64,000 bases of DNA from the NCBI GenBank assembly GCA_963841735.1, contig CAWJDT010000004.1, forward strand, positions 383,395 through 447,394, read 5' to 3'. How positions within the stretch are numbered: the stretch's first letter is position 1; each line of letters begins with the position of its first letter. Below, piece after piece: positions 9,254 to 44,947 of this stretch. Below the pieces are notes generated by a model. It was not told the origin of the DNA. It saw only the letters and a program-made list of their open reading frames with translations, and searched no databases. The DNA is from an uncultured Actinomycetes bacterium (lineage in GTDB: Bacteria; Actinomycetota; Thermoleophilia; RBG-16-64-13). The position numbers and the translations under genes are program-made.

Positions 9254-9336
9254 GACCATCAAGGGGTTCGGCGCGGCGCAAAAGCTCTTTGCACGAGTAC
9301 GTGTCGCAACGCGCCTCGCCAAACCCCTTGATGGTC
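9254..9336. repeat. Long intergenic hairpin with 26-bp arms (REP-like or bidirectional terminator)
   Basis: 9254-9279 and 9311-9336 are inverted with 2 mismatches; apical GCACG-AGTA-CGTGT. Confidence 0.75.
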
Positions 9337-9340
9337 GCGG

Positions 9341-10249
9341 CTACTCAAATTCCTCTGACTCATCCGACGTGTGAAACAGGTACAGCTCGGCCTCCGCCAA
9401 GCGATCCTCTTGGCCACTGAGTAGATACTGCTCGGCCCGCTCCCGGAAACGGATTGCGGCCTCCTCCATCTCCGCCAGGCGCGGTGCGACGCCCCGCTCC
9501 ACCAGCAAAGCCTTCGCGGCGTCATACAGCTCTAGACTCCCGTAGAGCAGCTCCGCTTCGTCCAGGATCTTGCACGACACCATGCTCTTGAAGCCGTCGA
9601 AGGCAACCTGCTCCACCATCCGGCCGAAGGGTTTGATCACGTAGTCGATCTCTTCCCGATAGGTGGGATGCGTTAGATGGCGGTGCTTGGCCTGATAGAT
9701 GGCTTCGTCCAGCTGCTTCGTCAATGCCGGCGGAGTGACGTCGTCCATGATGACCACCAGATCGAGGTCCGAACCACGCACCATCCGCCCGGTACTCCTC
9801 TCCGGGCGTGGAGCGTCATGGGCCATCTCGTACACGATGTCACCTGCCAGAAGCACACAGAAGCGCTGCTCCCGGCCGTTGTCGGTCTCTAGCAAGCGAG
9901 CGCCTATCTCACCGATGATCCGTTGCGCCAGCCGTAGTTTGCCCGCGCTGATCTCCCGGATGCGACGCGCCAGCTCCTCTGTCCTCGCCTCGAGAGCCGC
10001 CTGATCATCGCGTAGTCCCACCACTGAGTAGGTTAGGAACTCCCGAAAGATCGATGGAGACAGCCGCGCGTAGCCCTCCACCCTCTGATCCAACCGCAGA
10101 TACCTTCGGCCGACCCTGCGCACAGCAATCCGCTCGGAACGCATACAGGCCTTCCACTGAGCAAAACCGTCCTCCCCCAAGGAGGCATGCATCTCGGCCC
10201 CAGTCAACGGCCCTCGCTCGGTCAACAGCTGGACGATCCTGTCTTCCAT
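9341..10249 (-). CDS. wHTH plus Pol-beta superfamily nucleotidyltransferase-like protein
   Basis: N-terminal IVQLL..RGPLTGAEM; VLLAGD...GSDLDLVVI...EIDYVIK. Confidence 0.6.
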   Translation of the reverse strand: MEDRIVQLLTERGPLTGAEMHASLGEDGFAQWKACMRSERIAVRRVGRRYLRLDQRVEGYARLSPSIFREFLTYSVVGLRDDQAALEARTEELARRIREISAGKLRLAQRIIGEIGARLLETDNGREQRFCVLLAGDIVYEMAHDAPRPERSTGRMVRGSDLDLVVIMDDVTPPALTKQLDEAIYQAKHRHLTHPTYREEIDYVIKPFGRMVEQVAFDGFKSMVSCKILDEAELLYGSLELYDAAKALLVERGVAPRLAEMEEAAIRFRERAEQYLLSGQEDRLAEAELYLFHTSDESEEFE

Positions 10250-10258
10250 CGTCCGGCC

Positions 10259-11629: not shown

Positions 11630-11644
11630 GTCTTTCTCCTTACG

Positions 11645-12883: not shown

Positions 12884-12976
12884 ACCCGCTCCTCCGCTCT
12901 TGGGACCCGAGCAAGAGTCACTCACGGCGTGAATCTTGTCAAGCTCCCCGATCACATGGACTGTACAATCTGCACC

Positions 12977-13879
12977 ATGGCCGCCGAATCAAAGAGAGCC
13001 GTCATCGCCGCGATAATCGGGAATGCGGCTATCGCCGCCATCAAGTTCGTGGCCGGCGCCATGACCGGCAGCTCGGCCATGATCTCTGAAGGCATCCACT
13101 CCCTGGTCGACACTGGCAATGGTGGTCTGCTCTTCCACGGCCTCCGCCGCGGCGCTCGACCACCCGACGGCGCACACCCGTTCGGCCACGGCATGGAGCA
13201 GTACTTCTGGAGCCTCATCGTGGCTGTGAGCATCTTCGGCATAGGTGGAGGACTCTCTATCTACGAGGGCGTAGCCCACATCCAGCACCCGTCGCCTCTC
13301 GAGAGTCCCGTCATCAACTACATAGTGCTCGCCGCCGCGGTGGTGTTCGAGTCGCTCTCCTTCAGCGTCGCCTGGAAGGCCTTCAGCAAGCACAAGAAGG
13401 GAAGGCGTACGTTCTCTGCCATCCATCACGGCAAAGACCCCAGCCTCTTCACAGTGCTATTTGAAGACACCGCCGCTCTCCTTGGCTTGGTGGTCGCGTT
13501 CCTGGGAGTCTTCTTCAGCCATCTGTTCGACTCCCCTGCGATAGACGGTGCCGCCTCGGTGGTCATCGGCGTGATCCTCATATGCGCCGCCCTTTGGCTG
13601 GCCCGCGAAAGCCGCAGCCTACTAGTGGGAGAGGCGGCCGACCCCCAGTTGGTAGCCGCCGTGCGAGAGATCGCTCTGGCAGATCCAGCTGTCATAGGCC
13701 TGGGATCTGTGCTGACCATGCATCTGGGCCCCGAAGAGGTTCTGCTCAACATCGAGGTACAGTTCACGCCCGGCCTGCCGGTGGAAGGGGTCCATACGGC
13801 CATTCACCGCATCGAGGCCGCGATCGCCAAGTCGTTCCCGGAGGTCACCCGCATCTTCACCGAGGTACACGCCGAGTAG
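12977..13879 (+). CDS. Cation diffusion facilitator transporter
   Basis: SEGIHSLVD, HPFGHG, FEDTAALLG, transmembrane helices, TMHLGP C-terminal domain. Confidence 0.92.
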   Translation: MAAESKRAVIAAIIGNAAIAAIKFVAGAMTGSSAMISEGIHSLVDTGNGGLLFHGLRRGARPPDGAHPFGHGMEQYFWSLIVAVSIFGIGGGLSIYEGVAHIQHPSPLESPVINYIVLAAAVVFESLSFSVAWKAFSKHKKGRRTFSAIHHGKDPSLFTVLFEDTAALLGLVVAFLGVFFSHLFDSPAIDGAASVVIGVILICAALWLARESRSLLVGEAADPQLVAAVREIALADPAVIGLGSVLTMHLGPEEVLLNIEVQFTPGLPVEGVHTAIHRIEAAIAKSFPEVTRIFTEVHAE

Positions 13880-13955
13880 CCAGAGAGTGCGTACGCGTTT
13901 CCGCGAAGCACTGCGAGTACGCAACGCTTCGCTCCAGCGCGCACGCACTCTCTGG
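13880..13955 (-). repeat. REP-like extended hairpin, copy A
   Basis: 18-bp outer stem; core GGAGCGAAGC..TGCG-TACT-CGCA.GTGCTTCGCG on the minus strand. Confidence 0.7.
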
Positions 13956-14039
13956 GCGCCCTACAGCTACGGAAAATTCACGCATCCTTCTGGTGGCCCG
14001 GGAGCATAGACGTCAGGATTCCCCCATCAGCGCAGTCTC

Positions 14040-14117
14040 ACCGAGGGGACACGGGGGTAGGAGCGAAGCTTTGCGGTACTCCGTTGTGCTTCGCGTAAAC
14101 CCCTGTGTCCCCTCGGT
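14040..14117 (+). repeat. REP-like extended hairpin, copy B
   Basis: 19-bp outer stem; core GTAGGAGCGAAGC..GCGG-TACT-CCGT.GTGCTTCGCG. Confidence 0.7.
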
Positions 14118-14129
14118 CACTGAGTGCGG

Positions 14130-16163
14130 CTAGCAGGCTTCGTCCAGCGCCTCAGCGAACTGGCTGCTGTACAGGTCATAGTAGAAGCCGCCTTTGCACA
14201 GCAGCTCATGGTGCGTACCCTGCTCGACGATAGCCCCCTCGTTCATCACCAGGATGACATCGGCGTCGCGGATGGTGGACAGCCGGTGCGCGATGACAAA
14301 GCTCGTGCGTCCCTTGAGTAGCTTCGCCATGGCCCGCTGGATGAGAACCTCGGTACGCGTATCCACCGAACTCGTTGCTTCATCCAAGATGAGGATCTGC
14401 GGATCGGCCAAGAACGCCCGGGCGATGGTAAGAAGCTGCCTCTCCCCCTGAGAGATGTTGGTGGAGTCGTCCTCAACCTTCGTGTCATAGCCGTCGGGCA
14501 GAACCCGCACGAAATGGTCTGCGTGGGCCGCCTCGGCAGCCGCTGCGATCTCCTCCTTGGTGGCATTCTCCCGCCCGTAGGCGATGTTCTCCCGTATGGT
14601 GCCGGAGAACAGCCAGGCGTCCTGGAGCACCATGCCGAACAGCCTCCGGAGGTCATCGCGGGCCATGGCGCGAGTGTCCACGCCGTCGATCTCGATACTG
14701 CCCTCATCAAGCTCATAGAAGCGCATCAGCAAGTTGACCAGGGTGGTCTTGCCCGCACCGGTCGGGCCCACGATGGCCACCGTCTGCCCAGGGAGGACCT
14801 CCAGGTTGAGCTTGTCGATGAGCGGTGTTTCGGGCAGATAGCGGAACGAGACGTCCCGCAGCACGATACGCCCGGTCGACTCCTTGAGCACCACAGGCTG
14901 AGCCGGGTCGGCCGACTCCTCCTCTTCGTCGAGCATCTCGAACACCCGCTCAGCAGAGGCCACCGCCGACTGCATGACGTTGGCAACGCTGGCGACCTGA
15001 GAGATGGGCTGGCCGAACTGCTGGGTGTACTGGATGAAGGCGAACACGTCGCCCAACGACATCGTACCGCTCGCCACCCGCAGGCCGCCCAGACACGCAG
15101 ACGGCCACGTAGTTGAGGTTCGATACGAAGAAAGTGGCCGGCATGATGATGCCCGAGATGAACTGCGCCTTGAAGCTGGCCTCGTACAGGCCGGCGTTCT
15201 GCTTGTCGAAGATGGTGATCGCCTCTTTTTGACGACCAAAGATCTTCACGATGTTGTGCCCCGTGAACATCTCTTCCACGTGGCCGTTCAGATCACCAGT
15301 CCGTTCCCACTGCCGCGCGAACTGCTTCTGCGAGCGCTTCGCGATGACCATGGCCAGCGCCGCGGAGACCGGCACGACGACCAGCGAGATAAGCGCAAGC
15401 AGAGGGCTGATCCAGAACATCATGGCCAGCACACCTATCAGCGTGAGAATGCTACCTGATGATCTGGGTGAGCACCTGTTGCATGCGTCTGCTGGATGTT
15501 GTCGATGTCGTTGGTCAGCCGGCTCAGGATGTCGCCGCGGGCGTGACTGTCGAAGTACTTCAGCGGCAGACGTGCGATCTTCTGTCGACGTCACGCCGCA
15601 GCCTGTAGACCGTGCGCTGCACGACGCCGGCCATGAGAAAGCCCTGCATCCACGAAAGCAGCGCGCTGAGTAGGTAGATCGCGCTGACGATCAACAGGAC
15701 CTTGTTCACGGAGGCGAAGTCCACTCCCTGGCCGGGCCGCAGATCCATTCCGGCCAGCATCTTCGCCCTGTCGGTCTGGCCGGCCGCCTCCAACTGCGCG
15801 ATTATCTGCTCTTTGGTCCAGTCACCCTCCGGAAGGCCAAGAGCTTTGACCTGAGCGTTGATCTCTCGGCTCATGGCTCCTGCGAAGATGTCGTTGGTAG
15901 CACGGACCATGATCTTCGGGGCCGCCGATCTGGCAGATCAGTGCTGACAAGCGCCAGCAGGATGACCACGATGATCGAGCGTCCGCTCGAGACGCAGCGT
16001 CCGCACCAGGCGCTTGAACGAGCCCTTGAAGTTCTTGGCCTTCTCGCCCGTCCCGATCAGCCCGGGAGGACCAGGGGTCTGCTGCGCTCCGCCTGGGCCC
16101 TGCGGGCGCGCCTCGCCGCCGTCGGTGCCTCCCGCTCTCCGACGCTCTCCGGCGCCCGCTCAT
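14130..16163 (-). CDS. Heterodimeric ABC exporter subunit B (TMD+NBD), frameshifted
   Basis: [35 protein letters not shown]; TMD pieces in adjacent frames. Confidence 0.88.
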
Positions 16164-35030: not shown

Positions 35031-35076
35031 AGCCGGTGAGGGGACTTGAACCCCAAACCTGCTGATTACAAATCAG
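35031..35076 (-). repeat. Distal att site, duplicated 3' part of tRNA-Thr
   Basis: AGCCGGTGAGGGGACTTGAACCCC(A/T)AACCTGCTGATTACAAATCAG, 45/46 identical to 44876-44921. Confidence 0.95.
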
Positions 35077-35384: not shown

Positions 35385-35852
35385 ATGCTAGCTGGGATAG
35401 CGTTGGGGGTTGCCGCAGCCTCCCTCGGCTGGCAAGTCTACACGTGGTTGAAAGGCCGGCGGCCAAATGTCGTCGTGGAGCTCAGAGCGACAGCTGATCG
35501 CTTTCCTATCCCCAGCTTGAAGGAAATGAGTCTGCGAGAGTTGGGTCTGTCCCCCCCAAAGTCCTACAGCGGTTGGACCTTCGCCTTGACCGTACGCAAC
35601 AAGAGCAGCCTGCCCGTGCAGGTGGACGAGATCGGTCTCTGCTCCCAAAGCTCGTCACCGAACACGTACTCAGTCAAGCGAGCATTGCCTGGGGGTCTGC
35701 CCGGCCGGGTAGCGGTCCAACAGAAGGCCCATGCTGTTCTATCAGCCGAAGATGCTACGAAGGAGGGGCTCAGTCTCGCCAAACCCCTAGTTGCCTACGC
35801 TGTTCTCGCTACTGGCGAAACCGTCAGATCCAAACCCGTGGCTTTGGACTAG
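35385..35852 (+). CDS. Membrane-anchored hypothetical protein (island cargo)
   Basis: N-terminal hydrophobic helix followed by a beta-rich domain. Confidence 0.55.
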   Translation: MLAGIALGVAAASLGWQVYTWLKGRRPNVVVELRATADRFPIPSLKEMSLRELGLSPPKSYSGWTFALTVRNKSSLPVQVDEIGLCSQSSSPNTYSVKRALPGGLPGRVAVQQKAHAVLSAEDATKEGLSLAKPLVAYAVLATGETVRSKPVALD

Positions 35853-35937
35853 AGCCCCGCTTCTGGGCGGGCAGGGGACCCGCCGGCAAAGCTTGCCGAC
35901 TACCGAAGTTGAACTCGGGCCTGACTGTCTCTGGCAG

Positions 35938-36468
35938 TCACTCGGCGGCGTCGATTGCGTCAAGAATCAGGTACAAGGCATCCTCAACCTTGTACAGTTG
36001 TGCGTCAGCTTCACCGAAAGCGGTGGTAGCCGCCTCAGAGTCCTTGCGAGCCTCGGCCTGCTGGAACTGAGAGTCCAATTGACAGTAGCGCTCAAAGGCG
36101 TCCACCAGTTGCTGATGCTTCGCCGCGAGTTCTTGGGGCGGGCGCATCTGTTTGAGCTGAGACAAATCTTCGAATTCGGCTTCAACGTGTTGGCGGTACT
36201 CCGCGTCATCGAAATCTGGGTTGCCTTGCGCGTCCTCTCCAAGCTCGGGAGGAGAATTGCTCGCGAGATCGTCACCCCACGCGTATATGGCATCCTTGTA
36301 CTCAGCCAACGTCCCGCCCTTCTCAACAGATGTTGCCGGGGCAGACGTCGTCGAGACGCCTCGGGTGCTGTTCGTGCTGTCGGCTTCTTTGCTGCCACAC
36401 CCCGCCACAATGAGAGCGCAAGTGCACAGAAGCGCTAGAGCAACGACGACGAGTCTCCGTACGGTCAT
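35938..36468 (-). CDS. Lipoprotein (island cargo)
   Basis: LIVAGC lipobox, Ser/Thr linker, acidic helical domain; GAGGGG RBS. Confidence 0.7.
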   Translation of the reverse strand: MTVRRLVVVALALLCTCALIVAGCGSKEADSTNSTRGVSTTSAPATSVEKGGTLAEYKDAIYAWGDDLASNSPPELGEDAQGNPDFDDAEYRQHVEAEFEDLSQLKQMRPPQELAAKHQQLVDAFERYCQLDSQFQQAEARKDSEAATTAFGEADAQLYKVEDALYLILDAIDAAE

Positions 36469-36620
36469 GGCTTCCCCTCACGTTGGAACATTTACGCTCC
36501 CCCCACTGTAGGACATGCCTCAGACAGAGGATAGAGAACAACCCCATGCCGGAAAAGCCTGGCGCCGCCCCCCATCCTCCACCGGATCGCTCGGGAGACG
36601 ACGGAACGCGGCCGGGGTAG

Positions 36621-37004
36621 CTACCCCCGGCTGTGCCCGCACCAACCGCACGCTTCAGAGTCCGCAGGGATCAACTCGCCGCAGCCTTGGCACTTGACCC
36701 GGGGAGAAGGCAACTGCTCCCCGGTCACGGCTCTCGCGAGGCGCTCTTTGCGGGTCTTCCACCAGCGAGACAACCCAGTACCGTAGTCAAATAGCCACCA
36801 GCCCGCGTACAACACGGCCGCCCCGATTACAATGAAGACGATCCGATTCGTGCCTTCGTAGCGCTGGGCCGCCATGCCGATGCCCAGAGCAGCCAACAGA
36901 ACAAGCGCCCCACCCAGAGCCGCCAGGGACTTCGCAATGGCTTTCGATACCTTCATGGCCGCCCCCACATCAGTCAGCATGAGTACGAGGATGCCAGTCC
37001 ACAC
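36621..37004 (-). CDS. Small membrane protein with C-terminal zinc ribbon
   Basis: Hydrophobic helices, CQGC...CGWC; TTGACT-16-TATACT promoter at 37011-37038. Confidence 0.6.
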   Translation of the reverse strand: MWTGILVLMLTDVGAAMKVSKAIAKSLAALGGALVLLAALGIGMAAQRYEGTNRIVFIVIGAAVLYAGWWLFDYGTGLSRWWKTRKERLARAVTGEQLPSPRVKCQGCGELIPADSEACGWCGHSRG

Positions 37005-37119
37005 TTGGCCAGTATAGGGGCGCTTATTCCTAAGTCAAATGGTACGGACAACGCCCGGCTGGCAAAGCTTGGTAGCGGCCGATTCGGGGGGCTCTCGCAG
37101 CCACAGAACAGCCCTAGCC

Positions 37120-37761
37120 TCACGGATTGGGCGAGTACCCCCACGTGGCTGCTAGCCACTCGGGCGTCCCGTAGCCTTCAAAGTCAGGGAAATAGTCCAC
37201 ATAGGCTGGTGTCGAATCCAGCGGCATTTCGAAGGGAACGGCTCCCTTCACGATGCGGCCCGCCTGGAGAACGCCTGACTCTAGCCTCGGTTCGCTGCAC
37301 AGTGTGGACATTGTGAAGACCTGCCCCTCGGAATCGGTGAGGCGCAATTGAATAGGGCTGTAGGAGAACGCCTCATCGGTGTCGTTCCTGATAGCCACGG
37401 TCACGTAGAACACGCCATAGCCATCGTCCAGGAATAGCTTCTCGGTATCGCTCAGGGCGGTGTCAGCCTGAGGCTCAGAAACCCGTACGATCACACCCCC
37501 CAAATCGAGTTCCGATTCCCACACATACATCGGAGGGGGCAGAACCGATGTGGTCGTTAGAAACGCTTCTATGTCTTCCAGCGGGGGATACGGCTGAAGG
37601 GGCGTGATGGTTGTTGTGGTAGGCGCTTCAGTAGTTGTTCTGGCGGCGGCAGGCTGCTGGATAGTGGAGTTGGGCGCAGCACCGCCGCCACACGCTGTCG
37701 CAAGTAGAGCACAAGCGTAGACAAGCACGGCGGCAGCGAGCACGAGCTTCCGACAAGTCAT
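37120..37761 (-). CDS. DUF4352-like lipoprotein
   Basis: LATAC lipobox; V.VAIRN......SY.P....L.DSEG...L.SG.L..G...KG.V.FE.P. Confidence 0.7.
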   Translation of the reverse strand: MTCRKLVLAAAVLVYACALLATACGGGAAPNSTIQQPAAARTTTEAPTTTTITPLQPYPPLEDIEAFLTTTSVLPPPMYVWESELDLGGVIVRVSEPQADTALSDTEKLFLDDGYGVFYVTVAIRNDTDEAFSYSPIQLRLTDSEGQVFTMSTLCSEPRLESGVLQAGRIVKGAVPFEMPLDSTPAYVDYFPDFEGYGTPEWLAATWGYSPNP

Positions 37762-37885
37762 ACTTCCCCCTATCGTTCGCACTCGAGATCTGGGCCTCTT
37801 CATTGTAGAACAAAGGGAAGGCCCAGGATGGTCGCCCGGTACGGCGGCATGAGCACCGCGTACAGGTCAGCCTCGGAAGAGAGCT

Positions 37886-38374
37886 TCACTCCGCGTTGAT
37901 TTGATCTTCTGCGGTGTGTCCATCCTCCACCGGGCCTCGGTCTGCTTGGTCATTCGCCCTCCTGAGAATCCCCTCGTCGATGTCGTCGAGCACCGTGTGC
38001 TCGCGGGCCGGGCCTCGCGCTATCCAGAGGGGCTCCTGCCCGCTCAGGATCGCCTTCACCGCACCCCACGCCCGGCCCTGGGGTGCAGGCGCCCGGTAGC
38101 CCTCACGGATGATCTGACGGTAGCGGTCCCATCGAGCCCGGCCGTGGTGCCGGCAGTGGAGCATCATGTGGCACACGTAGCAAAAGCCGTAGGCGCCGAT
38201 GTGGTCACCAAAGGGCGCGGAGTAGTCTTCGCTGTGGGCCTCGACGATGCCCTCGGTTTGGCCGCAGGCCTCGCAGACTTCTGGCGGGCGGCGGCGCCCG
38301 GCCGCCACCTCGCCTTTCAGCCAACGTAGAGCCCGGTAGCGTTGCCCGGGCTCGAATCCGTTGTAGGAATTCAC
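37886..38374 (-). CDS. HNH-like Zn-binding endonuclease
   Basis: CEAC...AHSEDYS.P...FCYVCH...H; GGGGAG RBS before GTG. Confidence 0.6.
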   Translation of the reverse strand: MNSYNGFEPGQRYRALRWLKGEVAAGRRRPPEVCEACGQTEGIVEAHSEDYSAPFGDHIGAYGFCYVCHMMLHCRHHGRARWDRYRQIIREGYRAPAPQGRAWGAVKAILSGQEPLWIARGPAREHTVLDDIDEGILRRANDQADRGPVEDGHTAEDQINAE

Positions 38375-38685
38375 ATCAAACTCCCCACTTTTTGGGGCTT
38401 TATTGCACTGTTTTCGCCCCTTTACTCTAGCGCCCTCACCCGGCAATGCAAGCCGCAACAGGCTTGTTTGCAGGTCTTTATCTCAATCCGGGGTGACTGC
38501 AGGATCGTCTCCCAGGCGTTGGGGACTTTTGGCTATTTACGAGGCTAGTAAGGCGGGGGTGGGCGAGCGGTTCAAAATCACGTGACGACCCCCCCGCCCC
38601 TCTGCTTGCCGGGCTCCTCGATACAGAAGATCCTCCACACCGGGGAAGGAGAAGAGCGGGCAAGGCGGCCACGGCTCACTCTCCC

Positions 38686-39255
38686 TTAGAGCCCGATGGC
38701 ATCCCGGAGCTTGTCCACTACACCAGGGCCGCAAGCGTCGGCGCGGCAACCAGCGGCGGTGCGCTCCATCTGTAGCCTATGCAACTCAACCCGCACCCGC
38801 TTCAGGGCTTCAAAGGCATCCTCTCGGGCGATGAGGCTACGCGCGATACGCTTCTTCAACTCGGAGAGTTGGGCCTCCATCTTGGCGTTGGTCGGGACGA
38901 GCTCACCGATCTGGTTAATGAAGATGGCGTCGCTGTCAGCGAGTGCGTTCTTCGCTTGGATGGCCTCCCACCAGGCCAGGTCCGCCAGCTCAGCGATCTC
39001 TGCGGCTTCGCTGTCGCGGGCTACGGCCTTCTCGATCTGCCCGTCGAAGCGCTCGCGGGCGCGCCTCACATGCTCCGGCGTAGTGTCATCGGGCAGGTGG
39101 ATGTTCTCAGGGTTGACTTGCAGGCCCTCGGCCCAGCAGAAGAAGCCGAGCCGTTCCTGTCTACACAGGCCTCGACTGAGTGCACGCCCACAATACGGGC
39201 AGGTCTCTGCACCGCTCGTCGCCGTGGCCGCCTTGTTTTCCGGGGCTCTCATCAT
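38686..39255 (-). CDS. Hypothetical protein with CPYC motif and coiled coil
   Basis: ATGA-coupled to the protease gene. Confidence 0.6.
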   Translation of the reverse strand: MMRAPENKAATATSGAETCPYCGRALSRGLCRQERLGFFCWAEGLQVNPENIHLPDDTTPEHVRRARERFDGQIEKAVARDSEAAEIAELADLAWWEAIQAKNALADSDAIFINQIGELVPTNAKMEAQLSELKKRIARSLIAREDAFEALKRVRVELHRLQMERTAAGCRADACGPGVVDKLRDAIGL

Positions 39256-40163
39256 GCGAATACCTCCTTGAAGAACGTGGTTTCATACGCCTGTGCCTCG
39301 GGTTCGCCGTACCCCTTGCAGTGGCTTACCTCGTGAGCGACCACTCTGACGAGCTCGCGACCGCGCAGGTCTGCGCGAAGCCACAGCTCTCCGCCGTAGC
39401 CTTGGTACGCGCGCCCAAGGCTCTGACCCGTCCGGTCCTTGTACCAGAACACCGCGGGCGGATCGATGCCCAGGTGGTCAGCCGCGAGCTTCACAGCCGC
39501 CTCGGCTAGTTCCCGTATCCGTGCCGGGATGCGCCCCTCGGGCACGGGCTCGTGATGGTCATCTGCGTCTTGCACGGCGGAGCCGCGGCAAGACATCAGG
39601 CTGATCTTGACCATTCTGAGGTACTCGCGCTCAAGATCGCCACGTGCCTGCTCATCCCCGAAGAGGCTGCCTCGTATGGCCAGCATCTCCGCCCGGGTCG
39701 AGTCCTTCATTGCGAGGGTCCGCGTGCCGATGCTCGCGCCCTTCAGGACCGGCGAGACCTCATGCACGTCGACGCTGCTGATGATCCGGGCTCTGCGCCC
39801 TTCCCACTGTCCCTGCTTCGCCACGACGTTCTCGAGGCTGTAGCTCCACTCCCCCAGCTCCCCCAGCTCTTTCACCACAGTGAAGGTCTCGCGGCCGGCC
39901 TGGGTGTCCATGAAGAAGCGGCCGGTGAGAACGGCCTCCCGGTCGGTTGCGCTGATCGTGCCCTTGCCCACCGGGAGCGCGCCCGTCCAGCTTCCGTGAC
40001 CGTAGGCGGAGATACGGACGGGGGAGCCAGACTTGAAGGCCCCCGGCAGAATGACATCCCCGTCGCGGTCGATAACATTGAGCGTGGAGAAGACAGCAGT
40101 GACGGTCCCTTCTGCCTCGGACTTCACCTCCACCCCGCGAAGCGTCTTGTGTTCCAACTTCAT
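39252..40163 (-). CDS. HK97-family prohead protease fused to an HExxH metallopeptidase
   Basis: D.DGDVI.PGAF, YGH, EWSY, EVSPVL.GA; C-terminal VVAHEVSH...E. Confidence 0.85.
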   Translation of the reverse strand: MKLEHKTLRGVEVKSEAEGTVTAVFSTLNVIDRDGDVILPGAFKSGSPVRISAYGHGSWTGALPVGKGTISATDREAVLTGRFFMDTQAGRETFTVVKELGELGEWSYSLENVVAKQGQWEGRRARIISSVDVHEVSPVLKGASIGTRTLAMKDSTRAEMLAIRGSLFGDEQARGDLEREYLRMVKISLMSCRGSAVQDADDHHEPVPEGRIPARIRELAEAAVKLAADHLGIDPPAVFWYKDRTGQSLGRAYQGYGGELWLRADLRGRELVRVVAHEVSHCKGYGEPEAQAYETTFFKEVFA

Positions 40164-40167: not shown

Positions 40168-40578
40168 TCACTTTCGTCTTGCCAATACCGAGTCCGTGCT
40201 GATCTTCCAGTGGCCGCTCTCTCGCCTGCCGAGCAGATCACCAGAGTCGAGCAGCCGGCGTATGTAACGATCCGAGCAGCCCAACACGTCCGCGGCCTGC
40301 GCAGTGGTCATGATTGCGTCCACCACTTCTGATTCTGGCAGCGGTTCCGCGGCGGCAGGTTCCGGAGTTCCGCGGCGGACCTCTTCGACCCATGCCCTCC
40401 CGGCCATCCTGATCGCGTCTGCGACGTCCTCAAGTATCAGCCGCAGGTGCGGCGGATACTCCTCTATCCGCTCTCGGATCTCCCGTTGAGCAAGCAACCC
40501 GGCGATGGCCACAGCCGGCCAGCCCTCGACAAGAGCGGCGGAGCGAATGAGACTACGGGGGGCGTCGGGACTGCTCAT
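40168..40578 (-). CDS. Protein with C-terminal excisionase-type HTH
   Basis: MTTAQAADVLGCSDRYIRRL...G.L..R...HWKI. Confidence 0.75.
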   Translation of the reverse strand: MSSPDAPRSLIRSAALVEGWPAVAIAGLLAQREIRERIEEYPPHLRLILEDVADAIRMAGRAWVEEVRRGTPEPAAAEPLPESEVVDAIMTTAQAADVLGCSDRYIRRLLDSGDLLGRRESGHWKISTDSVLARRK

Positions 40579-40706: not shown

Positions 40707-41972
40707 TCACGGTGTTGCCTCCGGGGCTAGACTCCATAGGCCACGGCTCTCGTTGACCACCAGGCCGCGGCGCTTGAGTTTCGTGAGTGCGACTCGCACC
40801 GCTCCGGGCGTGGTGCCTGTCGCCTCGGTCAGTCCCGAGACACTGAGCGGCCCGTGCTCCAGCTCCCCAAGGATCACGCTCACGGTGGCGCCCTGTTCGG
40901 TCAGCAGGTCATCGGCCGCCACGGTTTCCACCACGATGGCGTCGCGCTCGAATATGAGCCTCATCCCGACTGGCGCCGGCCGCCCCATGTTGTGTTTCCG
41001 AGGGAACATCCCCACCTGGAGCACGTGCTGGTCGCTCGTCTCCTGCGGTCGGATTTCCCACGTGGCGCGAGACAGGTTCTCAAAGTAGACGCTCCCGATA
41101 GGGAGGCGGTGCTGGTTCTCTTCGCGGCGGTCTGCCTTGGTCGTATGGGTCAGAATCCCTACCGCGGCGTTGGTGGAAGCCGTCACCTTGCGGAGCGCGT
41201 TGAAGAATTGGATGGCGAGCTCGGCACTCATGATGTCTCCCCCGCAAGCCGGGCCGGCAGAGTCGACGATAACGAGCCCTATCTCGTGCTTCGCTATGGT
41301 CTTCGCGATCTCTGAGGTCTCGTCAAGGATCGAACCTAGACAGCGGCGATAGAGCGGATACCGGAGAGTGGCGCCGATAAGTGTCTGCTCCAGGCCGTTC
41401 GCCAGTAGCGTGCAGCGCCGGTCTGCCTCTGCTTTTGTTACCTCCCAATCGAGATAGAGCACGTTTTCCCGGCGTGTGGGCTCACCTTGAAAGGGCAGGC
41501 CGTTTTGCACGAGCAGCGCGACATACATGGCCAGAAGGCTCTTGCCCGACGCGCCGGGCGCGTACCATGCCACGGGTAGGTGGTCTAGCAGTAAGGGGCG
41601 GAGCAGGTACTCAACCTCGGTGCTCGCGACCGGGCAGAGGTACTCAGCCGGGCTGCCCTCTTCCTCGCGCTCCAGGATCGTTCGACAGGACTCTTCTATC
41701 ACCCGGTCCCAGCTGTTCGCCTCAGCGGGTAGTCTCTGTTCAAGGTCGCGTGAGAGTTCGCGCCGGCTGCGGCCGGCTGCCAGGTTCAGGTTCCCGTGGT
41801 GGAGCGGGAGCTGCTCCCCGCTAGGTGTGGTGGCAGTGACTCTCACCCGCGCCTGTACGCGGCCGTCTGAGTGGCTGCGGAGGCGGTCTGCCTCAAAGAC
41901 TACCTCCGCGGTTGGTAGTGACCACTGAACGGCATAGCAGCCCGGCGCGGCTGTAACTCGCGGGGGATTCAT
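40707..41972 (-). CDS. RepA/AAA_25-type helicase with C-terminal wHTH
   Basis: APGASGKS, VLYLDWE, LVIVDS, ILTHTTK, IGS; ATGA-coupled start. Confidence 0.8.
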   Translation of the reverse strand: MNPPRVTAAPGCYAVQWSLPTAEVVFEADRLRSHSDGRVQARVRVTATTPSGEQLPLHHGNLNLAAGRSRRELSRDLEQRLPAEANSWDRVIEESCRTILEREEEGSPAEYLCPVASTEVEYLLRPLLLDHLPVAWYAPGASGKSLLAMYVALLVQNGLPFQGEPTRRENVLYLDWEVTKAEADRRCTLLANGLEQTLIGATLRYPLYRRCLGSILDETSEIAKTIAKHEIGLVIVDSAGPACGGDIMSAELAIQFFNALRKVTASTNAAVGILTHTTKADRREENQHRLPIGSVYFENLSRATWEIRPQETSDQHVLQVGMFPRKHNMGRPAPVGMRLIFERDAIVVETVAADDLLTEQGATVSVILGELEHGPLSVSGLTEATGTTPGAVRVALTKLKRRGLVVNESRGLWSLAPEATP

Positions 41973-42256
41973 CGTACCCATGCCCGCACCGGCCCCTTGT
42001 GCGACCGGGGGCGCTGTAGTCGAGCCTGGCAGCAGTCTATACGGTCGTCCGCCCACTGTTGAGCGGTCATCGGGAAGGTTCCCCGCCACACTATGGCCCG
42101 CGGGTCCCGAGCGACGATCCTAGCTGCCTGGAATATCTCGTTGAAGAGTTCACACGGAGTCAACTCTGCTAGGTCTTCGTTGTAGACCCGGAGACACTCT
42201 TCGAGGCTGACTGCGGCGTTGGGCAGTTTCGCGACCGCTCGCCTTGCCCGGGTCAC
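41969..42256 (-). CDS. Hypothetical island protein
   Basis: 95-aa ORF coupled to the helicase. Confidence 0.5.
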   Translation of the reverse strand: MTRARRAVAKLPNAAVSLEECLRVYNEDLAELTPCELFNEIFQAARIVARDPRAIVWRGTFPMTAQQWADDRIDCCQARLQRPRSHKGPVRAWVR

Positions 42257-42291: not shown

Positions 42292-42498
42292 CTAGCGGCC
42301 CGCCACCGGCCGGCCCTCAGAGGTTGACGTCTGAGTCTGGCTGGCCGCCCACGTCCGCACTACCTCCGGATCGTAGCGAACGGCGCCGTTGATCTTCAAA
42401 TACGGGGGCCCGCAGCCTCGCCACCTCCACTGGTTTATGGTCTGCTCTGCCAGCCGCAGAAAATTGGCTGCCTCTTGCGAAGTCCATCGTGGCTCCAT
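42292..42498 (-). CDS. AlpA/excisionase-like HTH protein
   Basis: T..EAA.FL.L...T...WR..G.GPPYLK...AVRY. Confidence 0.88.
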   Translation of the reverse strand: MEPRWTSQEAANFLRLAEQTINQWRWRGCGPPYLKINGAVRYDPEVVRTWAASQTQTSTSEGRPVAGR

Positions 42499-42596: not shown

Positions 42597-43295
42597 TCAG
42601 TTCCTGTGACGGGGCGATGCATCTCGCGAGCCTGGCGGCCTACCAGGCGATCGGACCGCGCACAAGTCGAGCCCCACGAGCTTCGCAACTTCCTTCACGC
42701 GCTTTTGGACGTTGTCCATCTGCGAGGGTTCGGGCGCGAGATCGGTCCACTTCTCCCGCAACACCTGATAGCGGACAAGCCAGTCGAGGTGCAGGGAAAA
42801 CTGAGGCTTGGCGCGATCATGGACCCAGCCTTGTCTACGCAGCTCGCGCTCCTGTTCAAGGTAGGCTCGTTTGGTCTCCGTCAGTGACATCCGCGTCGGG
42901 TCCAAGTCAGGACTGGTGGCCGTTTCGCCATTCATATTGATGCTAGCGCCTGGAAGCATCCAGTCGCGCAGCCTCCAAGCGGGCACCCACTCCCACAGCA
43001 GCAGGGTCTCGCCCAACACAGAGAGTAACCATGGCGGCGCCGCGTTGAAGGCGTACTTTCGGGGCTCCTCTGGTTTGGCCCAGGCCCGCAGTGCATCCGC
43101 GAGGTTCCTATCCTGTGGGTTCGCCCAAGTGAGGGAACGCACCACTTCCTCGTCGACACGAGATCCGGACTCGGCCGCCACAGCGCCCAACTCCCGGAGG
43201 ATGCCGGGGACCTTTTCCCGCACCATCTCCAGGAAGGCTCTCCGGTATTGCGCGGTTTGCAGCTCCGGAAAGATGAGAGACAGGTCGCGGCTCAC
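42597..43295 (-). CDS. Hypothetical protein coupled to the integrase, possible regulator
   Basis: 4-nt overlap with int; C-terminal helical region and GRP motif. Confidence 0.6.
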   Translation of the reverse strand: MSRDLSLIFPELQTAQYRRAFLEMVREKVPGILRELGAVAAESGSRVDEEVVRSLTWANPQDRNLADALRAWAKPEEPRKYAFNAAPPWLLSVLGETLLLWEWVPAWRLRDWMLPGASINMNGETATSPDLDPTRMSLTETKRAYLEQERELRRQGWVHDRAKPQFSLHLDWLVRYQVLREKWTDLAPEPSQMDNVQKRVKEVAKLVGLDLCAVRSPGRPPGSRDASPRHRN

Positions 43296-44701
43296 TTCCC
43301 AGCCTCCTGCGAGCCTGGCATGGCCACCACTTCCCCCCCGGGCTTGCCCTCCAAGACCGCCGCAATATGGCCCGCCACGATCCCCGCGGCCTGCCGTAGT
43401 GGATCGTTGGCCAGGTGAGCGTACCTCTGTGTCGTGGCGGCTTGTGTGTGCCCCAGCAAGGCCCCGATCGTCGGGAGACTCAGACCGTCGCCGGCGCCAA
43501 CACTGGCGAAGCTATGGCGCAGGTCATGGATTCTCAGAGTGGACAGGTCGACACGGTCCTTCTTCTCCAGCTTGCCCTCGGCTTGCTGTTTGTCCTGTTG
43601 TTCATTGACCTTCGCCTTCAGCCGGCGCCAGGGACCGTTCAGGTCAGCGATATGGTCCGGGCCGCGCTCACCTGGGCACACCCACGGGCTACCCTTCTTC
43701 CGGGGCGCGTCGTCTAGCAGCTTGATAGCCGGCGGTCCGAGTACAATCACCTTTGCGCCCGTCTTGCTGTCCGGCAGGCGTAGTAGACCGCGCTGGAAGT
43801 CCACGTGCTCCCACCTGAGCGTGAGGATCTCGCCCAGCCGGGCACCGGTGAGCAGCAGTAGTCTCAGAGCCAGGATGGCCGCCGGGTGTTCGGGCTCGAG
43901 CTTGCGGCGCACTGTCCGCTCCTTGCCGTCGCGGCCGATGGTCTTCACCATCATTGTCGGTGTCGCAGGTAGTCGCTCCATCTCCCGCAGGGCCTCACCT
44001 AGCCGCGCAAGTTCCCTCTCCGACAGGTAGCGTTCGCGCTTCTTCTCTTTGAACTTGCCGAGATGCCGGCAGGGATTCGAGCCTTCAGGTCTCCAACCCC
44101 ACAGCTCGGCAAGGTTCATCATCTTCGACAACAACGCGACCGTCCGGTTCGCCTGTGTGGGCTTGTCGCGCAGCTTGTGCTGAAGGCGGGCCACATCCTC
44201 GCGGGTGATGCTGGCCACCGTCTGGCCCTCAAAGGTGGGCTTGATGTAGGTCTCCAGCTTCTGGGTATCATCGGCTATGCCCTTCGGCCCCTTGCGGACC
44301 TCAGCCCATTCGTGGAGGTAGCGCTCGGATAGATCCTCGATCGTGGGCTCTTCGGCCGCTTCCTTCTTCCGCTCGATCTTCTCTTCCGCTGGGTTCTCCC
44401 CACGGGCCACCGCCGCAAGCAGCTGTTGAGCCTGAGATCGCGCCTGCTCCGCGGTGACGACGCCGTGCCTTCCGATAGTCACCCTGCGCGTCTTGTTCGC
44501 GCCGTCACGGTACTGGACTAGGTAGCTCTTGACGCCGGACGCGGTGATGCGAACACCGAAACCTGCGAGTTGGTCATCCCATATGAGCACATCGCGGTTT
44601 GGATCGCCCGGCAGCTTGCCGAGACTTGATAGCTTGGCGTCGAGTTCTTGGATCATCGCGTCGTGCTCGGCGTGGTCTATGACCCGTTTCGTCAGCTTCA
44701 T
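43292..44701 (-). CDS. int: Tyrosine integrase with arm-DNA-binding domain
   Basis: IWD..L.GFGVRI..SG.KSY; TGAR.GEI, K, HDLRHSFAS, LLGH, TQRY. Confidence 0.95.
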   Translation of the reverse strand: MKLTKRVIDHAEHDAMIQELDAKLSSLGKLPGDPNRDVLIWDDQLAGFGVRITASGVKSYLVQYRDGANKTRRVTIGRHGVVTAEQARSQAQQLLAAVARGENPAEEKIERKKEAAEEPTIEDLSERYLHEWAEVRKGPKGIADDTQKLETYIKPTFEGQTVASITREDVARLQHKLRDKPTQANRTVALLSKMMNLAELWGWRPEGSNPCRHLGKFKEKKRERYLSERELARLGEALREMERLPATPTMMVKTIGRDGKERTVRRKLEPEHPAAILALRLLLLTGARLGEILTLRWEHVDFQRGLLRLPDSKTGAKVIVLGPPAIKLLDDAPRKKGSPWVCPGERGPDHIADLNGPWRRLKAKVNEQQDKQQAEGKLEKKDRVDLSTLRIHDLRHSFASVGAGDGLSLPTIGALLGHTQAATTQRYAHLANDPLRQAAGIVAGHIAAVLEGKPGGEVVAMPGSQEAGK

Positions 44702-44875
44702 TTGACCTCCTGATTCCTGGTCAGCATGTTAGCCGCGTAAGCAGGGCGTAAGCACAAGGCACAGAAATGCTCATATCTGCGTAGATGATAAAGGAACTTG
44801 CGAGAAGGTGCAATGTGGCGTGCAAGCCCGCTGCGCAAGCGGGTAATTGACCTGCAACCCGCTTATACCCTGAGG

Positions 44876-44947
44876 AGCCGGTGAGGGGACTTGAACCCCT
44901 AACCTGCTGATTACAAATCAGCTGCTCTACCATTGAGCTACACCGGC
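44876..44947 (-). tRNA. tRNA-Thr(TGT)
   Basis: GCCGGTG acceptor stem, GCTGA-TTTGTAA-TCAGC anticodon arm, GGTTCAAGTCC T arm; CCA not encoded. Confidence 0.97.

What the first reader, a model, noticed from the sequence alone, without database searches (positions are those of the whole stretch)
39252..40163. HK97 prohead serine protease fused to an ImmA/IrrE-like zinc metallopeptidase, with no capsid gene
Seen: the N-terminal domain retains the prohead protease His (YGH) and Ser (EWSY) plus EVSPV; a helical linker leads to GRAY...LWLRADL...VVAHEVSH...E. Known: prohead proteases normally sit beside or are fused to a capsid protein, and ImmA/IrrE HExxH proteases cleave HTH repressors. Inference: a dual protease acting in trans on helper procapsids (interference or defence), or coupling capsid sensing to cleavage of an HTH regulator such as the adjacent one.
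Basis: partly seen in the sequence, partly recalled or inferred. Interest (0 to 1): 0.75.

Follow-up and report, generated by a model that had tools for sequence, protein, structure and literature searches.

The report
Two-protease gene in capsid-less phage satellite
A small mobile island in an actinobacterial genome carries a phage head-maturation protease fused to a zinc protease but has no capsid gene, which points to a previously undescribed way for phage parasites to tamper with the head assembly of the phages they exploit.

Summary
Window 39252-40163 (-) encodes a 303-aa protein. It has an HK97-type prohead serine protease domain (res 1-~153), a helical linker, and a ~100-aa zincin domain with the motif HExxHxxGxxE.

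- **Not an artefact.** The fusion occurs in 42 clusters (50% identity) out of 1.84 billion proteins. The zinc motif is present in 43 of 43 sequences.
- **Convergent architecture.** The same zincin is fused to the unrelated ClpP-type head protease in 3 clusters. In two other islands it is a separate gene beside an S78 or ClpP protease.
- **Context.** All 6 contexts seen are small integrase + replication islands with no capsid, portal or large-terminase gene. The window's island is 9.9 kb, at tRNA-Thr, bounded by 46-bp repeats.
- **Origin of the protease domain.** The closest protease homologues (up to 71% identity) lie between portal and capsid genes of prophages. Fusion N-domains are interleaved with them on a tree.
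- **The zincin family.** It is nearer Pfam DUF6782 than ImmA/IrrE.
- **The next gene** is a Zn-ribbon helical hairpin, not a capsid.

Best reading, with the mechanism inferred: this is a hijack or interference module of a PICI-like satellite. A copy of the helper phage's protease aims a second protease at helper head assembly.

The parts
44874..44947 (-). tRNA-Thr (TGT), the integration target. It contains attL, the 46-nt repeat at 44876-44921.
   Evidence: ARAGORN; direct repeat D1
35031..35076 (.). attR: a 46-nt copy of the tRNA-Thr 3' part, about 98% identical. It marks the far end of the 9.9-kb island.
   Evidence: the repeat finder, spacing 9845
43292..44701 (-). Tyrosine integrase, 469 aa
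   Evidence: Pfam Phage_integrase 6.8e-18 and Arm-DNA-bind_3 1.2e-15; phrog_1 3.4e-56
42597..43295 (-). 232-aa protein with no known family; its stop overlaps the integrase start
   Evidence: ORF list; no Pfam, PHROG, PADLOC or NCBIfam hit
42292..42498 (-). 68-aa excisionase/AlpA-type HTH_17 protein
   Evidence: Pfam HTH_17 1.5e-7; phrog_66 2.7e-8
40707..42089 (-). Replication protein: AAA_25 ATPase plus C-terminal winged HTH. The true start is probably near 41978.
   Evidence: Pfam AAA_25 1.4e-19 and MarR_2; phrog_906; 60% identical to the Rep of a second island in the same genome, with the alignment starting at residue 43
40168..40578 (-). Conserved upstream partner: 136-aa protein with a C-terminal excisionase-type HTH_17 domain
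   Evidence: Pfam HTH_17 2.6e-8; TIGR01764 at 29.5 bits against a 28.8 cut-off. Homologues sit directly upstream of the zincin gene in L001, L016, L023 and the ClpP-type island L234.
39705..40163 (-). Fusion protein residues 1-153: HK97-type prohead serine protease domain. His56 is at 39996-39998 and Ser107 at 39843-39845.
39558..39704 (-). Fusion protein residues 154-202: helical linker, predicted with low confidence. It is not alignable to the C-terminal tail of the phage-type proteases.
   Evidence: AF2 pLDDT 40-56, helices 155-167 and 171-196; alignment A2
39252..39557 (-). Fusion protein residues 203-303 plus stop: zincin domain. HExxH is at 39321-39335 and Glu287 at 39303-39305.
   Evidence: AF2 pLDDT 92-97; zincin matches at Z 8.8-6; motif in 43 of 43
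38686..39255 (-). Conserved downstream partner: 189 aa, an N-terminal Zn-ribbon-like part followed by a hairpin of two ~45-residue helices. The start overlaps the fusion's stop (ATGA). It is not a capsid protein.
   Evidence: BLAST to L001, L016 and L023 partners; AF2 model; no capsid match
37886..38458 (-). 190-aa Cys/His-rich protein; a weak endonuclease-like hit only
   Evidence: phrog_2340 'endonuclease' E 0.00099; no Pfam hit
35385..37803 (.). Accessory end of the island. It holds a DUF4352 lipoprotein (37120-37803, -), a 127-aa membrane/Zn-ribbon protein (36621-37004, -), a 176-aa lipoprotein (35938-36468, -) and a 155-aa protein (35385-35852, +).

Best explanation
**What is shown.** The gene encodes one polypeptide with two proteases that both appear catalytically competent. 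One is an HK97-type (S78) prohead serine protease domain. The other is a small zincin with the metal site HExxHxxGxxE. It is the central conserved gene of a 9.9-kb PICI-like phage satellite integrated at tRNA-Thr. That element has an integrase, an excisionase-type HTH protein and an AAA_25 replication protein, but no capsid, portal, terminase-large or tail gene.

**Proposed mechanism (inferred).** The serine-protease domain is a near copy of the head-maturation protease of the helper-type phages. It gives the protein the helper protease's address: the helper's capsid protein or scaffold and its procapsids. The zincin is a second protease that phages of this type do not carry. Brought there, it cuts a helper head-assembly component, or is released there. 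The result would spoil or re-purpose helper heads for the satellite's benefit. The conserved flanking genes (an HTH_17 protein and a Zn-ribbon helical hairpin) belong to the same module.

**Status of each step.** The architecture, its conservation, the convergent ClpP version and the satellite-type setting are shown. The targeting, the substrate and the benefit to the satellite are inferred.
For: 1. **The fusion is real and conserved.** Fifteen other full-length homologues were found among the best 120 hits, with both active sites invariant. In an unrestricted profile search of 1.84 billion representatives, 42 of 132 zincin hits carry the S78 domain, and all 42 have HExxH. Ser107 is present in 41 of 43 fusion sequences, H277/E278/H281 in 43 of 43, and E287 in 42 of 43, the exception being His.
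2. **The link to head proteases is convergent.** Three of the 132 hits (P0136, P0166, P0213) join the same linker and zincin to a ClpP-type protease, with Pfam CLP_protease E 2e-25 to 9e-29.
3. **Split forms exist.** L028 has the order zincin gene, one gene, S78 protease, one gene, small terminase. L234 has the order HTH partner, zincin, ClpP.
4. **The setting is always capsid-less.** All 6 of 6 contexts with protease plus zincin (window, L001, L016, L023, L028, L234) are islands with a tyrosine or serine recombinase. Four of the six carry AAA_25 (plus Prim-Pol in L234); none was detected in L001 or L028. None has a capsid, portal or TerL gene. Of 141 S78 loci without the zincin, 116 hold a capsid homologue; of the zincin loci, none does. 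Small-terminase genes are present in L001 and L028.
5. **The N-domain comes from phage head modules.** All 7 of 7 inspected zincin-less homologue loci have the order TerL, portal, protease, capsid. The window's N-domain is 71% identical to such proteins, against 66% for the next-best fusion outside its own close pair.
6. **Fusion N-domains are not one clade.** At least 4 label changes are forced by well-supported branches, and the AU test rejects monophyly with p 0.0077. This fits repeated re-pairing of the zincin with helper-type proteases.
7. **A sister island supports the element type.** A second island in the same genome has a Rep 60% identical and carries a lone HK97 capsid gene. Elements of this type therefore carry single head genes.
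8. **A possible helper co-occurs once.** One genome with such an island (L001's) also holds a prophage whose protease is 57% identical to the island's N-domain.
Against: - No helper phage, no packaging and no cleavage has been observed. Every functional step is inferred.
- The window's own genome (2.8 Mb, 89.7% complete) holds no portal gene and no second S78 protease, so no resident helper is present.
- The window island itself has no recognisable small terminase.
- The helical C-terminal tail of the phage-type proteases is not alignable to the fusion's linker. From recall of HK97 work, that tail carries the capsid-targeting signal. Entry into procapsids is therefore not assured.
- The conserved HTH_17 neighbour would fit a regulatory reading equally well.
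- The tree evidence has limits. The phage-type rows were chosen as the best hits to this protein. The AU test used a quick LG+G4 tree, and I had already seen a FastTree topology before running it.
Confidence: 0.38

Rival explanations
1. **Encapsidated, injected effector (polyvalent-protein logic).** The prohead-protease domain serves as an entry ticket into helper procapsids. The ~11-kDa zincin, possibly freed by the serine protease, stays in the head. It is then ejected with the satellite DNA into the next cell, where it cleaves a host defence or regulatory protein.
For: - Iyer et al. 2017 (PMC5512222; passages read) describe the zincin-like MPTase as the commonest domain of head-packaged or conjugation-transferred polyvalent proteins.
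- Its core fold in that paper is an N-terminal helix, a three-stranded sheet, an HExxH helix and a Glu helix, which is the fold predicted here.
- The same paper notes assemblin-like proteases in some polyvalent proteins.
- A distant zincin hit in L235 is an ArdC-N + M78 protein of a ParA-bearing element.
- Fusion to both S78 and ClpP head proteases fits 'any route into the head'.
Against: - The phage-type C-terminal tail is missing.
- No homologue of this zincin was found in 50,697 phage records, in IMG/VR by pattern scan, or in 141 phage-type S78 loci.
- In the polyvalent proteins of that paper, the assemblin-like domain is 'always' C-terminal. Here it is N-terminal.
Confidence: 0.2
2. **Abortive-infection or defence cargo of the island (Lit-like logic).** The protease domain acts as a sensor that binds the incoming phage's capsid protein or scaffold. 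The zincin is then switched on and cleaves a host or phage target, stopping the infection.
For: - Modular swapping of the sensing domain (S78 or ClpP) and its tracking of phage proteases resemble sensor diversification in defence systems.
- Satellites are known carriers of defence genes (PMC10023795; passage read).
- From recall, capsid-triggered zinc proteases such as Lit are a precedent.
Against: - There is no PADLOC hit for the fusion or its two partners.
- The serine-protease catalytic Ser is kept in 41 of 43 sequences, which a pure sensor would not need.
- The gene sits in the conserved core between the replication gene and the accessory genes, with conserved neighbours, in all four fusion islands.
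Confidence: 0.18
3. **ImmA/IrrE/CapP-type switch.** The zincin cleaves the co-transcribed HTH_17 protein, or another island regulator, when the protease domain detects helper late proteins. Island induction or late gene expression would thus be coupled to helper head assembly.
For: - An HTH_17 protein is conserved directly upstream of the zincin in 5 of 6 islands, including the ClpP-type island L234.
- Some family members hit Peptidase_M78 weakly: 2 of 16 fusions and 6 of 90 stand-alone relatives.
- PprI and CapP appear among the structural matches, at Z 6.0 and 4.9.
Against: - The partner is an excisionase-type HTH, not an XRE repressor, and it lies inside a long one-directional operon.
- Sensing late head proteins would be late for a satellite to induce (inference).
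- The window protein itself has no M78 hit.
Confidence: 0.15
4. **Decaying prophage remnant or assembly artefact.** The protease is a leftover of a degraded head module, and the HExxH tail is meaningless.
For: No capsid gene is nearby, and the Pfam S78 score is below the cut-off.
Against: - The island is intact, with 46-bp att repeats, an integrase and a replication gene.
- The same three-gene cassette occurs in four genomes.
- There are 42 sequence clusters with both active sites kept.
- The fusion is present in isolate genomes of Streptomyces.
Confidence: 0.02

Closest known systems
HK97 gp4-type prohead proteases (MEROPS S78, Pfam PF04586; assemblin fold shared with T4 gp21 and herpesvirus proteases)
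   Same: The N-domain is homologous: phrog_80 E 3.5e-16, fold Z 10.0 to T4 gp21, catalytic His and Ser kept, and up to 71% identity to prophage proteases lying between portal and capsid genes.
   Different: It does not sit in a head module. The phage-type helical C-terminal tail is replaced by another linker plus a zincin. It is carried by a capsid-less island.
PICI / PICI-like phage satellites, including capsid-gene-bearing ones (de Sousa et al. 2023, PMC10085698; passages read)
   Same: The element is about 10 kb and has a tRNA att site, an integrase, an AlpA/excisionase-type HTH and a replication gene, with no virion genes. Related islands carry a small terminase. The paper notes that an HNH nuclease and a serine protease occasionally occur in PICI.
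   Different: No described satellite that I found has a prohead protease fused to a metalloprotease. The host is an actinobacterium. Helper dependence is not shown. The known Streptomyces satellites MiniFlayer and MulchRoom encode a full capsid and packaging set (PMC10690885; passages read).
Zincin-like MPTase domains of polyvalent proteins (Iyer, Burroughs, Anand, de Souza, Aravind 2017, PMC5512222)
   Same: Both share a minimal zincin core with HExxH and a Glu on the next helix. Both belong to mobile-element conflict proteins and are sometimes combined with assemblin-like proteases.
   Different: Here there are only two domains, the protease is N-terminal, and the gene sits in a satellite-like island rather than a phage late operon. 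Membership in one of their 12 MPTase clades was not tested.
Pfam DUF6782 (PF20573, putative metallopeptidase) and ImmA/IrrE (Peptidase_M78, PF06114)
   Same: There are weak profile matches over the strand, HExxH and helix region. DUF6782 is hit by 4 of 16 fusions and 45 of 90 stand-alone relatives, 7 of them above the cut-off. M78 is hit by 2 of 16 and 6 of 90.
   Different: The window protein itself reaches neither family at E <= 1. The third metal ligand has metzincin-like spacing (HExxHxxGxxE). No paper in the searched library mentions DUF6782.
Protease-scaffold and protease-scaffold-capsid fusions of phages and E. coli PICIs (P2 gpO and Gifsy-2 type from recall; earlier scan notes e1-207558 and related)
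   Same: A head protease is joined through a helical segment to another head-related module, and some of these are carried by satellites (unverified notes).
   Different: Here the C-terminal module is an enzyme (a zincin), not a scaffold or capsid protein.

Membership tests
HK97-type prohead protease (S78 / PF04586 / TIGR01543) | Match to the family profile | tested here: inconclusive
   The window protein scores 18.6 bits against Pfam (cut-off 21) and 17.6 bits against TIGR01543 (cut-off 59). However, phrog_80 gives E 3.5e-16, all 16 of 16 aligned members hit PF04586 with best E 1.4e-8, and identity reaches 71% to proteins that carry PF04586.
HK97-type prohead protease (S78 / PF04586 / TIGR01543) | Assemblin / gp21 fold | tested here: met
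   VIA-align gives Z 10.0 to T4 gp21 5jbl (131 aligned, rmsd 3.2) and Z 6.2 to the VZV protease. Foldseek lists herpesvirus proteases and gp21.
HK97-type prohead protease (S78 / PF04586 / TIGR01543) | Catalytic His and Ser conserved | tested here: met
   H56 and S107 are invariant in A1 and A2. Among 43 fusion sequences, Ser is present in 41 and His in 34, the His lying in a poorly aligned loop.
HK97-type prohead protease (S78 / PF04586 / TIGR01543) | Gene lies in a head module beside portal and major capsid genes | tested here: not met
   None of the 6 zincin-linked loci has a capsid, portal or TerL gene. All 7 of 7 inspected zincin-less homologues do.
ImmA/IrrE (Peptidase_M78) | Match to PF06114 | tested here: not met
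   The window protein has no hit at E <= 1. Two of 16 homologues hit, with best E 0.0055, below the cut-off.
ImmA/IrrE (Peptidase_M78) | HExxH plus a downstream Glu on a zincin fold | tested here: met
   The structural match to PprI is Z 6.0, which is lower than to generic zincins.
ImmA/IrrE (Peptidase_M78) | Paired with an XRE-type HTH repressor that it cleaves | tested here: inconclusive
   The conserved neighbour has an excisionase-type HTH_17 domain, not XRE. Cleavage cannot be tested here.
DUF6782 (PF20573) | Match to the family profile | tested here: inconclusive
   The window protein has no hit. Four of 16 fusions hit (best E 2e-4). Forty-five of 90 stand-alone or ClpP-linked relatives hit at E <= 0.01, 7 of them above the 27-bit cut-off.
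Metzincins | HExxHxxGxxH/D motif and a Met-turn | tested here: inconclusive
   The spacing is the same but the third position is Glu in 42 of 43 sequences and His in 1 of 43. The Met-turn was not examined. MMP catalytic domains match only at Z 5.0-5.3.
PICI-like phage satellite | Integrase with att repeats; size about 8-18 kb | tested here: met
   There are 46-nt repeats 9845 nt apart, one of them inside tRNA-Thr, and the integrase is adjacent.
PICI-like phage satellite | Replication module and AlpA/excisionase-type regulator | tested here: met
   An AAA_25 + winged-HTH protein and a 68-aa HTH_17 protein are present. This rests on annotation only.
PICI-like phage satellite | Lacks virion structural genes | tested here: met
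   No capsid, portal or TerL gene was found by Pfam, PHROGs or local HMMs. The prohead protease domain is the only head-related gene.
PICI-like phage satellite | Packaging-redirection gene (small terminase, Ppi, Cpm or similar) | tested here: inconclusive
   Terminase_4 is present in the related islands L001 and L028. In the window there is only a weak HTH-only match to phrog_57.
PICI-like phage satellite | Induced and packaged by a helper phage | not testable with these tools
   No helper is known, and none is resident in this genome.

The most novel reading that the evidence does not exclude
A family of capsid-less satellites, mainly in Actinomycetota with one island in Chloroflexota, uses 'protease mimicry'. 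A small zincin, together with its HTH and Zn-ribbon partners, is repeatedly re-joined to a copy of whichever head-maturation protease the local helper phages use, S78 or ClpP. The phage's own protease address then delivers a foreign protease to helper head assembly. This would be a satellite hijack or interference principle different from scaffold-type (CpmB, Sid, TcaP), capsid-homologue (Ccm) or terminase-directed mechanisms.
Probability: 0.33. Interest if true: 0.8.

Novelty: new variant of a known kind. Interest (0 to 1): 0.66.

Why it matters
Phage satellites are known to hijack helper heads with scaffolds, capsid homologues or terminase tricks. A helper-like maturation protease carrying a second, unrelated protease would add a new class of hijack or interference tool. 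It would also give the uncharacterised DUF6782-like zincins a biological setting.

Three features make this more than a one-off oddity:
- the convergent fusion to two unrelated head-protease folds;
- the existence of split forms;
- the complete separation from capsid genes.

The idea can be tested directly in Streptomyces strains that carry the gene. Public annotation currently calls these proteins simply 'HK97 family phage prohead protease' or 'hypothetical'.

Tried and rejected
- **Sequence search against solved structures.** With the protein and with a C-domain profile, nothing was significant (best E 0.16-0.66).
- **Foldseek on the whole model.** No match at E <= 1e-3. VIA-align was needed.
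- **Protein Atlas.** Searches for the C-domain and for the 189-aa neighbour gave scores of only 0.85-0.86, which are leads at best.
- **Pattern scans for the zincin.** No relatives in IMG/VR or in metagenome contigs. An alignment of 30 stand-alone zincins was too diverse to scan with (tool error).
- **Metagenome scan with the ClpP-zincin protein P0136.** The best 80 of 242 relatives were kept and returned only ordinary ClpP-type loci, none with the zincin. The genomic context of the three ClpP fusions therefore remains unknown.
- **IMG/VR scan with the full alignment.** The best 80 of 364 matches were examined. Three reached residue 237-250 but carry phage-type tails without HExxH.
- **Complex prediction of the fusion with its HTH_17 neighbour.** It gave no answer (score 0.00), which counts neither for nor against binding.
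- **Fold search for the 189-aa neighbour against viral models.** Only generic long-helix matches, E >= 0.04.
- **Attempt to show an empty attachment site in relatives.** Only one of 20 family genomes keeps the flanking cfa gene at 82% identity, and it has no tRNA beside it. Insertion polymorphism was not shown.
- **PADLOC.** No defence family for the fusion or its partners.
- **Considered and rejected.** An actinomycete conjugative element (AICE) is unlikely, because no FtsK/Tra-type gene was found by Pfam. A capsid fused or adjacent is ruled out.
Full report
**1. The observation**

Window 39252-40163 (minus strand) is an intact ORF.
- The longest frame begins at GTG 40241. The ATG at 40163 has a GAGG four bases upstream and follows the TGA of the preceding gene by 4 nt. 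It also coincides with the starts of homologues.
- The stop overlaps the start of the next gene as ATGA.

**2. The two domains**

Residues 1-~153 are an HK97-type prohead protease.
- phrog_80 'head maturation protease' gives E 3.5e-16.
- Pfam Peptidase_S78 covers profile positions 15-155 of 165, but at 18.6 bits it is below the 21-bit cut-off. TIGR01543 is likewise below its cut-off.
- An AlphaFold2 model built on 16 sequences (mean pLDDT 76.8) matches T4 gp21 at Z 10.0 (131 residues, rmsd 3.2) and the VZV protease at Z 6.2.

Residues ~203-303 fold with pLDDT 92-97. The elements are a helix (214-231), three strands (237-243, 250-253, 259-263), the HExxH helix (268-283) and a further helix (287-302).
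- All best matches to this part are zincins. They include M1 aminopeptidase catalytic domains and YbeY (Z 8.8-8.1), Wss1 (7.6), the minigluzincins abylysin and selecase (7.6, 7.4), HtpX (7.4), PprI/IrrE (6.0) and CapP (4.9).
- These Z values are middling and show a zincin fold, not a particular family.
- By sequence, the window protein reaches no zincin Pfam family. Among its 16 aligned relatives, 4 hit DUF6782 (best E 2e-4) and 2 hit Peptidase_M78 (best E 0.0055).

Between the domains lies a low-confidence helical linker (pLDDT 40-56).

**3. The fusion is not an accident**

- Among the best 120 of 1652 homologues, 15 besides the window's own protein cover 93-100% of the query. In their alignment H56, S107, E135, H277, E278, H281 and G284 are invariant, and E287 is nearly so.
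- A profile of the C-domain alone (4 sequences, A3) was run against 1.84 billion representatives with no length filter. It found 132 proteins at E <= 1e-3.
- Of these 132, 42 carry the S78 domain and all 42 have HExxH. The other 90 are mostly 92-250 aa, and 88 of them have HExxH.
- Over the 42 fusion representatives plus the window protein, HExxH is present in 43 of 43, G284 in 42 and E287 in 42. The exception at position 287 is His, as expected of a metal ligand. Ser107 is present in 41 of 43.
- The site therefore reads HExxHxxGxxE, which has metzincin spacing with Glu as the third ligand.
- Named members come from Streptomyces isolates and are annotated only as 'HK97 family phage prohead protease' or 'hypothetical'.

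**4. The most informative result: a convergent architecture**

- Pfam on the 90 non-S78 relatives shows that three of them (P0136, P0166, P0213) have an N-terminal ClpP-type protease (E 2e-25 to 9e-29). This is followed by a helical linker and the same zincin.
- From established knowledge (Liu & Mushegian 2004, cited in PMC5512222; not read), ClpP-like proteases are the other common class of phage head-maturation protease.
- Split forms also exist.
  - In a Dehalococcoidia island (L028), a stand-alone zincin lies two genes upstream of a 198-aa S78 protease, with a small terminase two genes further on. The zincin matches at pairwise E 5e-4 and at 3.6e-13 against the stand-alone profile.
  - In G151 (L234) the order is AAA_25, HTH partner, stand-alone zincin, ClpP protease.
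- Of the 90 relatives, 45 hit DUF6782 at E <= 0.01, 7 of them above the cut-off. Six hit M78 and four hit SprT-like.

**5. Where the gene sits**

- A 46-nt direct repeat (35031-35076 and 44876-44921, about 98% identical) duplicates the 3' part of tRNA-Thr (44874-44947). It bounds a 9.9-kb island.
- The island's genes run in one direction:
  - integrase;
  - a 232-aa unknown protein;
  - a 68-aa excisionase-type HTH_17 protein;
  - an AAA_25 + winged-HTH replication protein;
  - a 136-aa HTH_17 protein;
  - the fusion;
  - a 189-aa protein;
  - a 190-aa Cys/His-rich protein with a weak endonuclease PHROG hit;
  - lipoprotein and membrane accessory genes.
- No capsid, portal or large terminase is found in the 64-kb window, either by Pfam or PHROGs on the island genes or by HMMs built from the nearest phage relatives.
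- The cassette of HTH_17 protein, fusion and Zn-ribbon protein recurs in L001, L016 and L023. The HTH partner also precedes the zincin in the ClpP-type island.
- All six protease-plus-zincin contexts have a recombinase and no capsid, portal or TerL gene. Four carry AAA_25 (with Prim-Pol in L234); none was detected in L001 or L028. L001 and L028 carry a Terminase_4 small terminase.
No zincin locus has one. The two partner genes occur only in zincin islands.

**6. Relation to phages**

- All 7 of 7 inspected loci of zincin-less homologues have the order TerL, portal, protease, HK97 capsid.
- The window's N-domain is 71% identical to such proteins (P0010, P0005). It is 86% identical to its close fusion relative P0002, and 66% to the next-best fusion.
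- On trees of the N-domain, the fusion label needs 14-17 changes, at least 4 of them forced by well-supported branches.
  - One tree had 164 rows (FastTree). The other had 89 rows (IQ-TREE quick, LG+G4); for it, five rows were dropped (four long-branch fusions and the near-duplicate P0001) and 32 phage-type rows were sampled at random.
- The AU test rejects a single fusion clade (p 0.0077, delta lnL 154.7).
- Two caveats apply. The phage-type rows are the best hits to this protein. I had also seen the FastTree topology before running the AU test.
- The helical C-terminal tail of the phage-type proteases does not align with the fusion's linker.
- No sequenced phage in the 50,697-record collection matches the C-domain at E <= 1. 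The N-domain matches isolated phages at 37% identity or less.

**7. The genome**

- The genome is 2.8 Mb in 8 contigs and 89.7% complete. It belongs to the same phylum as an 'uncultured Actinomycetes' MAG.
- It has one S78 protease (this one) and no portal gene.
- It has one capsid gene, about 200 kb away on the same contig. That capsid (467 aa) is the only virion gene of a second small island, which has an integrase, an XRE HTH protein and a Rep 60% identical to the window's.
- Elements of this type therefore carry single head genes.
- The zincin profile was found in 6 of 401 sampled genomes of the phylum, including the window's own; two of those hits are strong.
- In L001's genome, a complete TerL-portal-protease-capsid prophage co-resides with the island. 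Its protease is 57% identical to the island's N-domain.

**8. The neighbour that could have refuted the finding**

The 189-aa protein downstream is conserved in the four fusion islands. It is modelled (pLDDT 76.6) as a small Zn-ribbon-like beta region followed by two long antiparallel helices, 61-106 and 124-167. It has no capsid match by HMM, and the fold search returned only non-specific long-helix matches. It is not a capsid protein. A scaffold-like role is possible but untested.

**9. Interpretation**

What is shown:
- a conserved two-protease protein;
- a convergent version with ClpP, and split versions;
- exclusive residence in capsid-less integrase + replication islands that look like PICI-type satellites;
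- N-domains that track genuine phage head proteases.

What is inferred: the protease domain supplies the helper protease's specificity or address, and the zincin does something phages of this type do not do to their own heads.

I rank the readings as follows.

| Reading | Confidence |
|---|---|
| Trans-acting hijack or interference at helper head assembly | 0.38 |
| Encapsidated, injected effector, as in polyvalent proteins (PMC5512222; passages read) | 0.20 |
| Lit-like defence | 0.18 |
| ImmA/CapP-like switch on the conserved HTH_17 partner | 0.15 |
| Remnant or artefact | 0.02 |

**10. Literature**

- de Sousa et al. 2023 (PMC10085698; passages) note that an HNH nuclease and a serine protease occasionally occur in PICI.
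- Eppley et al. 2022 (PMC9618062; passages) mention serine proteases in marine satellites.
- The known Streptomyces satellites encode whole capsid and packaging sets (PMC10690885; passages).
- 'DUF6782' occurs in no paper of the searched library.
- I found no description of a prohead protease-zincin fusion in searches. Those searches cover only the held open-access library, and the supplementary architecture lists of Iyer et al. were not seen.
- Earlier notes of this scan describe other satellite-borne prohead-protease fusions. They are unverified, and part of one later fell.

Noticed in passing
outside the window: G000:C4 about 212,600-220,100 (locus L067 7,600-15,100): A second small island in the same genome holds an integrase, an XRE HTH protein, an AAA_25 + wHTH Rep 60% identical to the window's, and a lone 467-aa HK97-type capsid gene with a ~195-aa N-terminal extension. 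It has no portal or protease. It appears to be a sister satellite with a different single head gene.
   Followed up: partly
L234 (G151:C64) 9,423-15,737: An island holds a serine recombinase, Prim-Pol, AAA_25, an HTH partner homologue, a stand-alone zincin and an adjacent ClpP-type protease, with no capsid. This is the split, ClpP version of the module.
   Followed up: partly
proteins P0136, P0166, P0213 (metagenomic; context unknown): These are ClpP protease, helical linker and zincin fused in single polypeptides of 360-404 aa. Their contigs are short (2.9-5.9 kb), and their neighbourhoods could not be fetched.
   Followed up: partly
L235 (G388:C5) 8,593-10,068: A 491-aa ArdC-N + Peptidase_M78 protein lies next to a ParA-type ATPase. 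It is a distant hit of the zincin profile and probably an ordinary ArdC-like anti-restriction protein of a conjugative element.
   Followed up: no
proteins P0060 and P0038: Close homologues of the protease domain have other additions. P0060 (262 aa) carries an HTH_31-type region after the protease. P0038 (329 aa) has a double zinc-ribbon inserted before a phage-type tail.
   Followed up: no
L001 7,623-8,795 (-): A 390-aa Peptidase_M10 (matrixin) gene lies directly after the Zn-ribbon partner in the related island of an uncultured Actinomycetes MAG. It is possibly island cargo.
   Followed up: no
window 35,385-37,803: The accessory end of the island encodes a DUF4352 lipoprotein, a second lipoprotein, a membrane protein ending in a zinc ribbon and a membrane-anchored 155-aa protein. 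They are possible surface or exclusion functions, and none has a defence-family hit.
   Followed up: no
window 37,886-38,458 (-): A 190-aa Cys/His-rich protein (CxxC ... CxxCH) has only a weak endonuclease PHROG hit (E 0.00099). It could be a degenerate HNH of the kind used with cos packaging.
   Followed up: no
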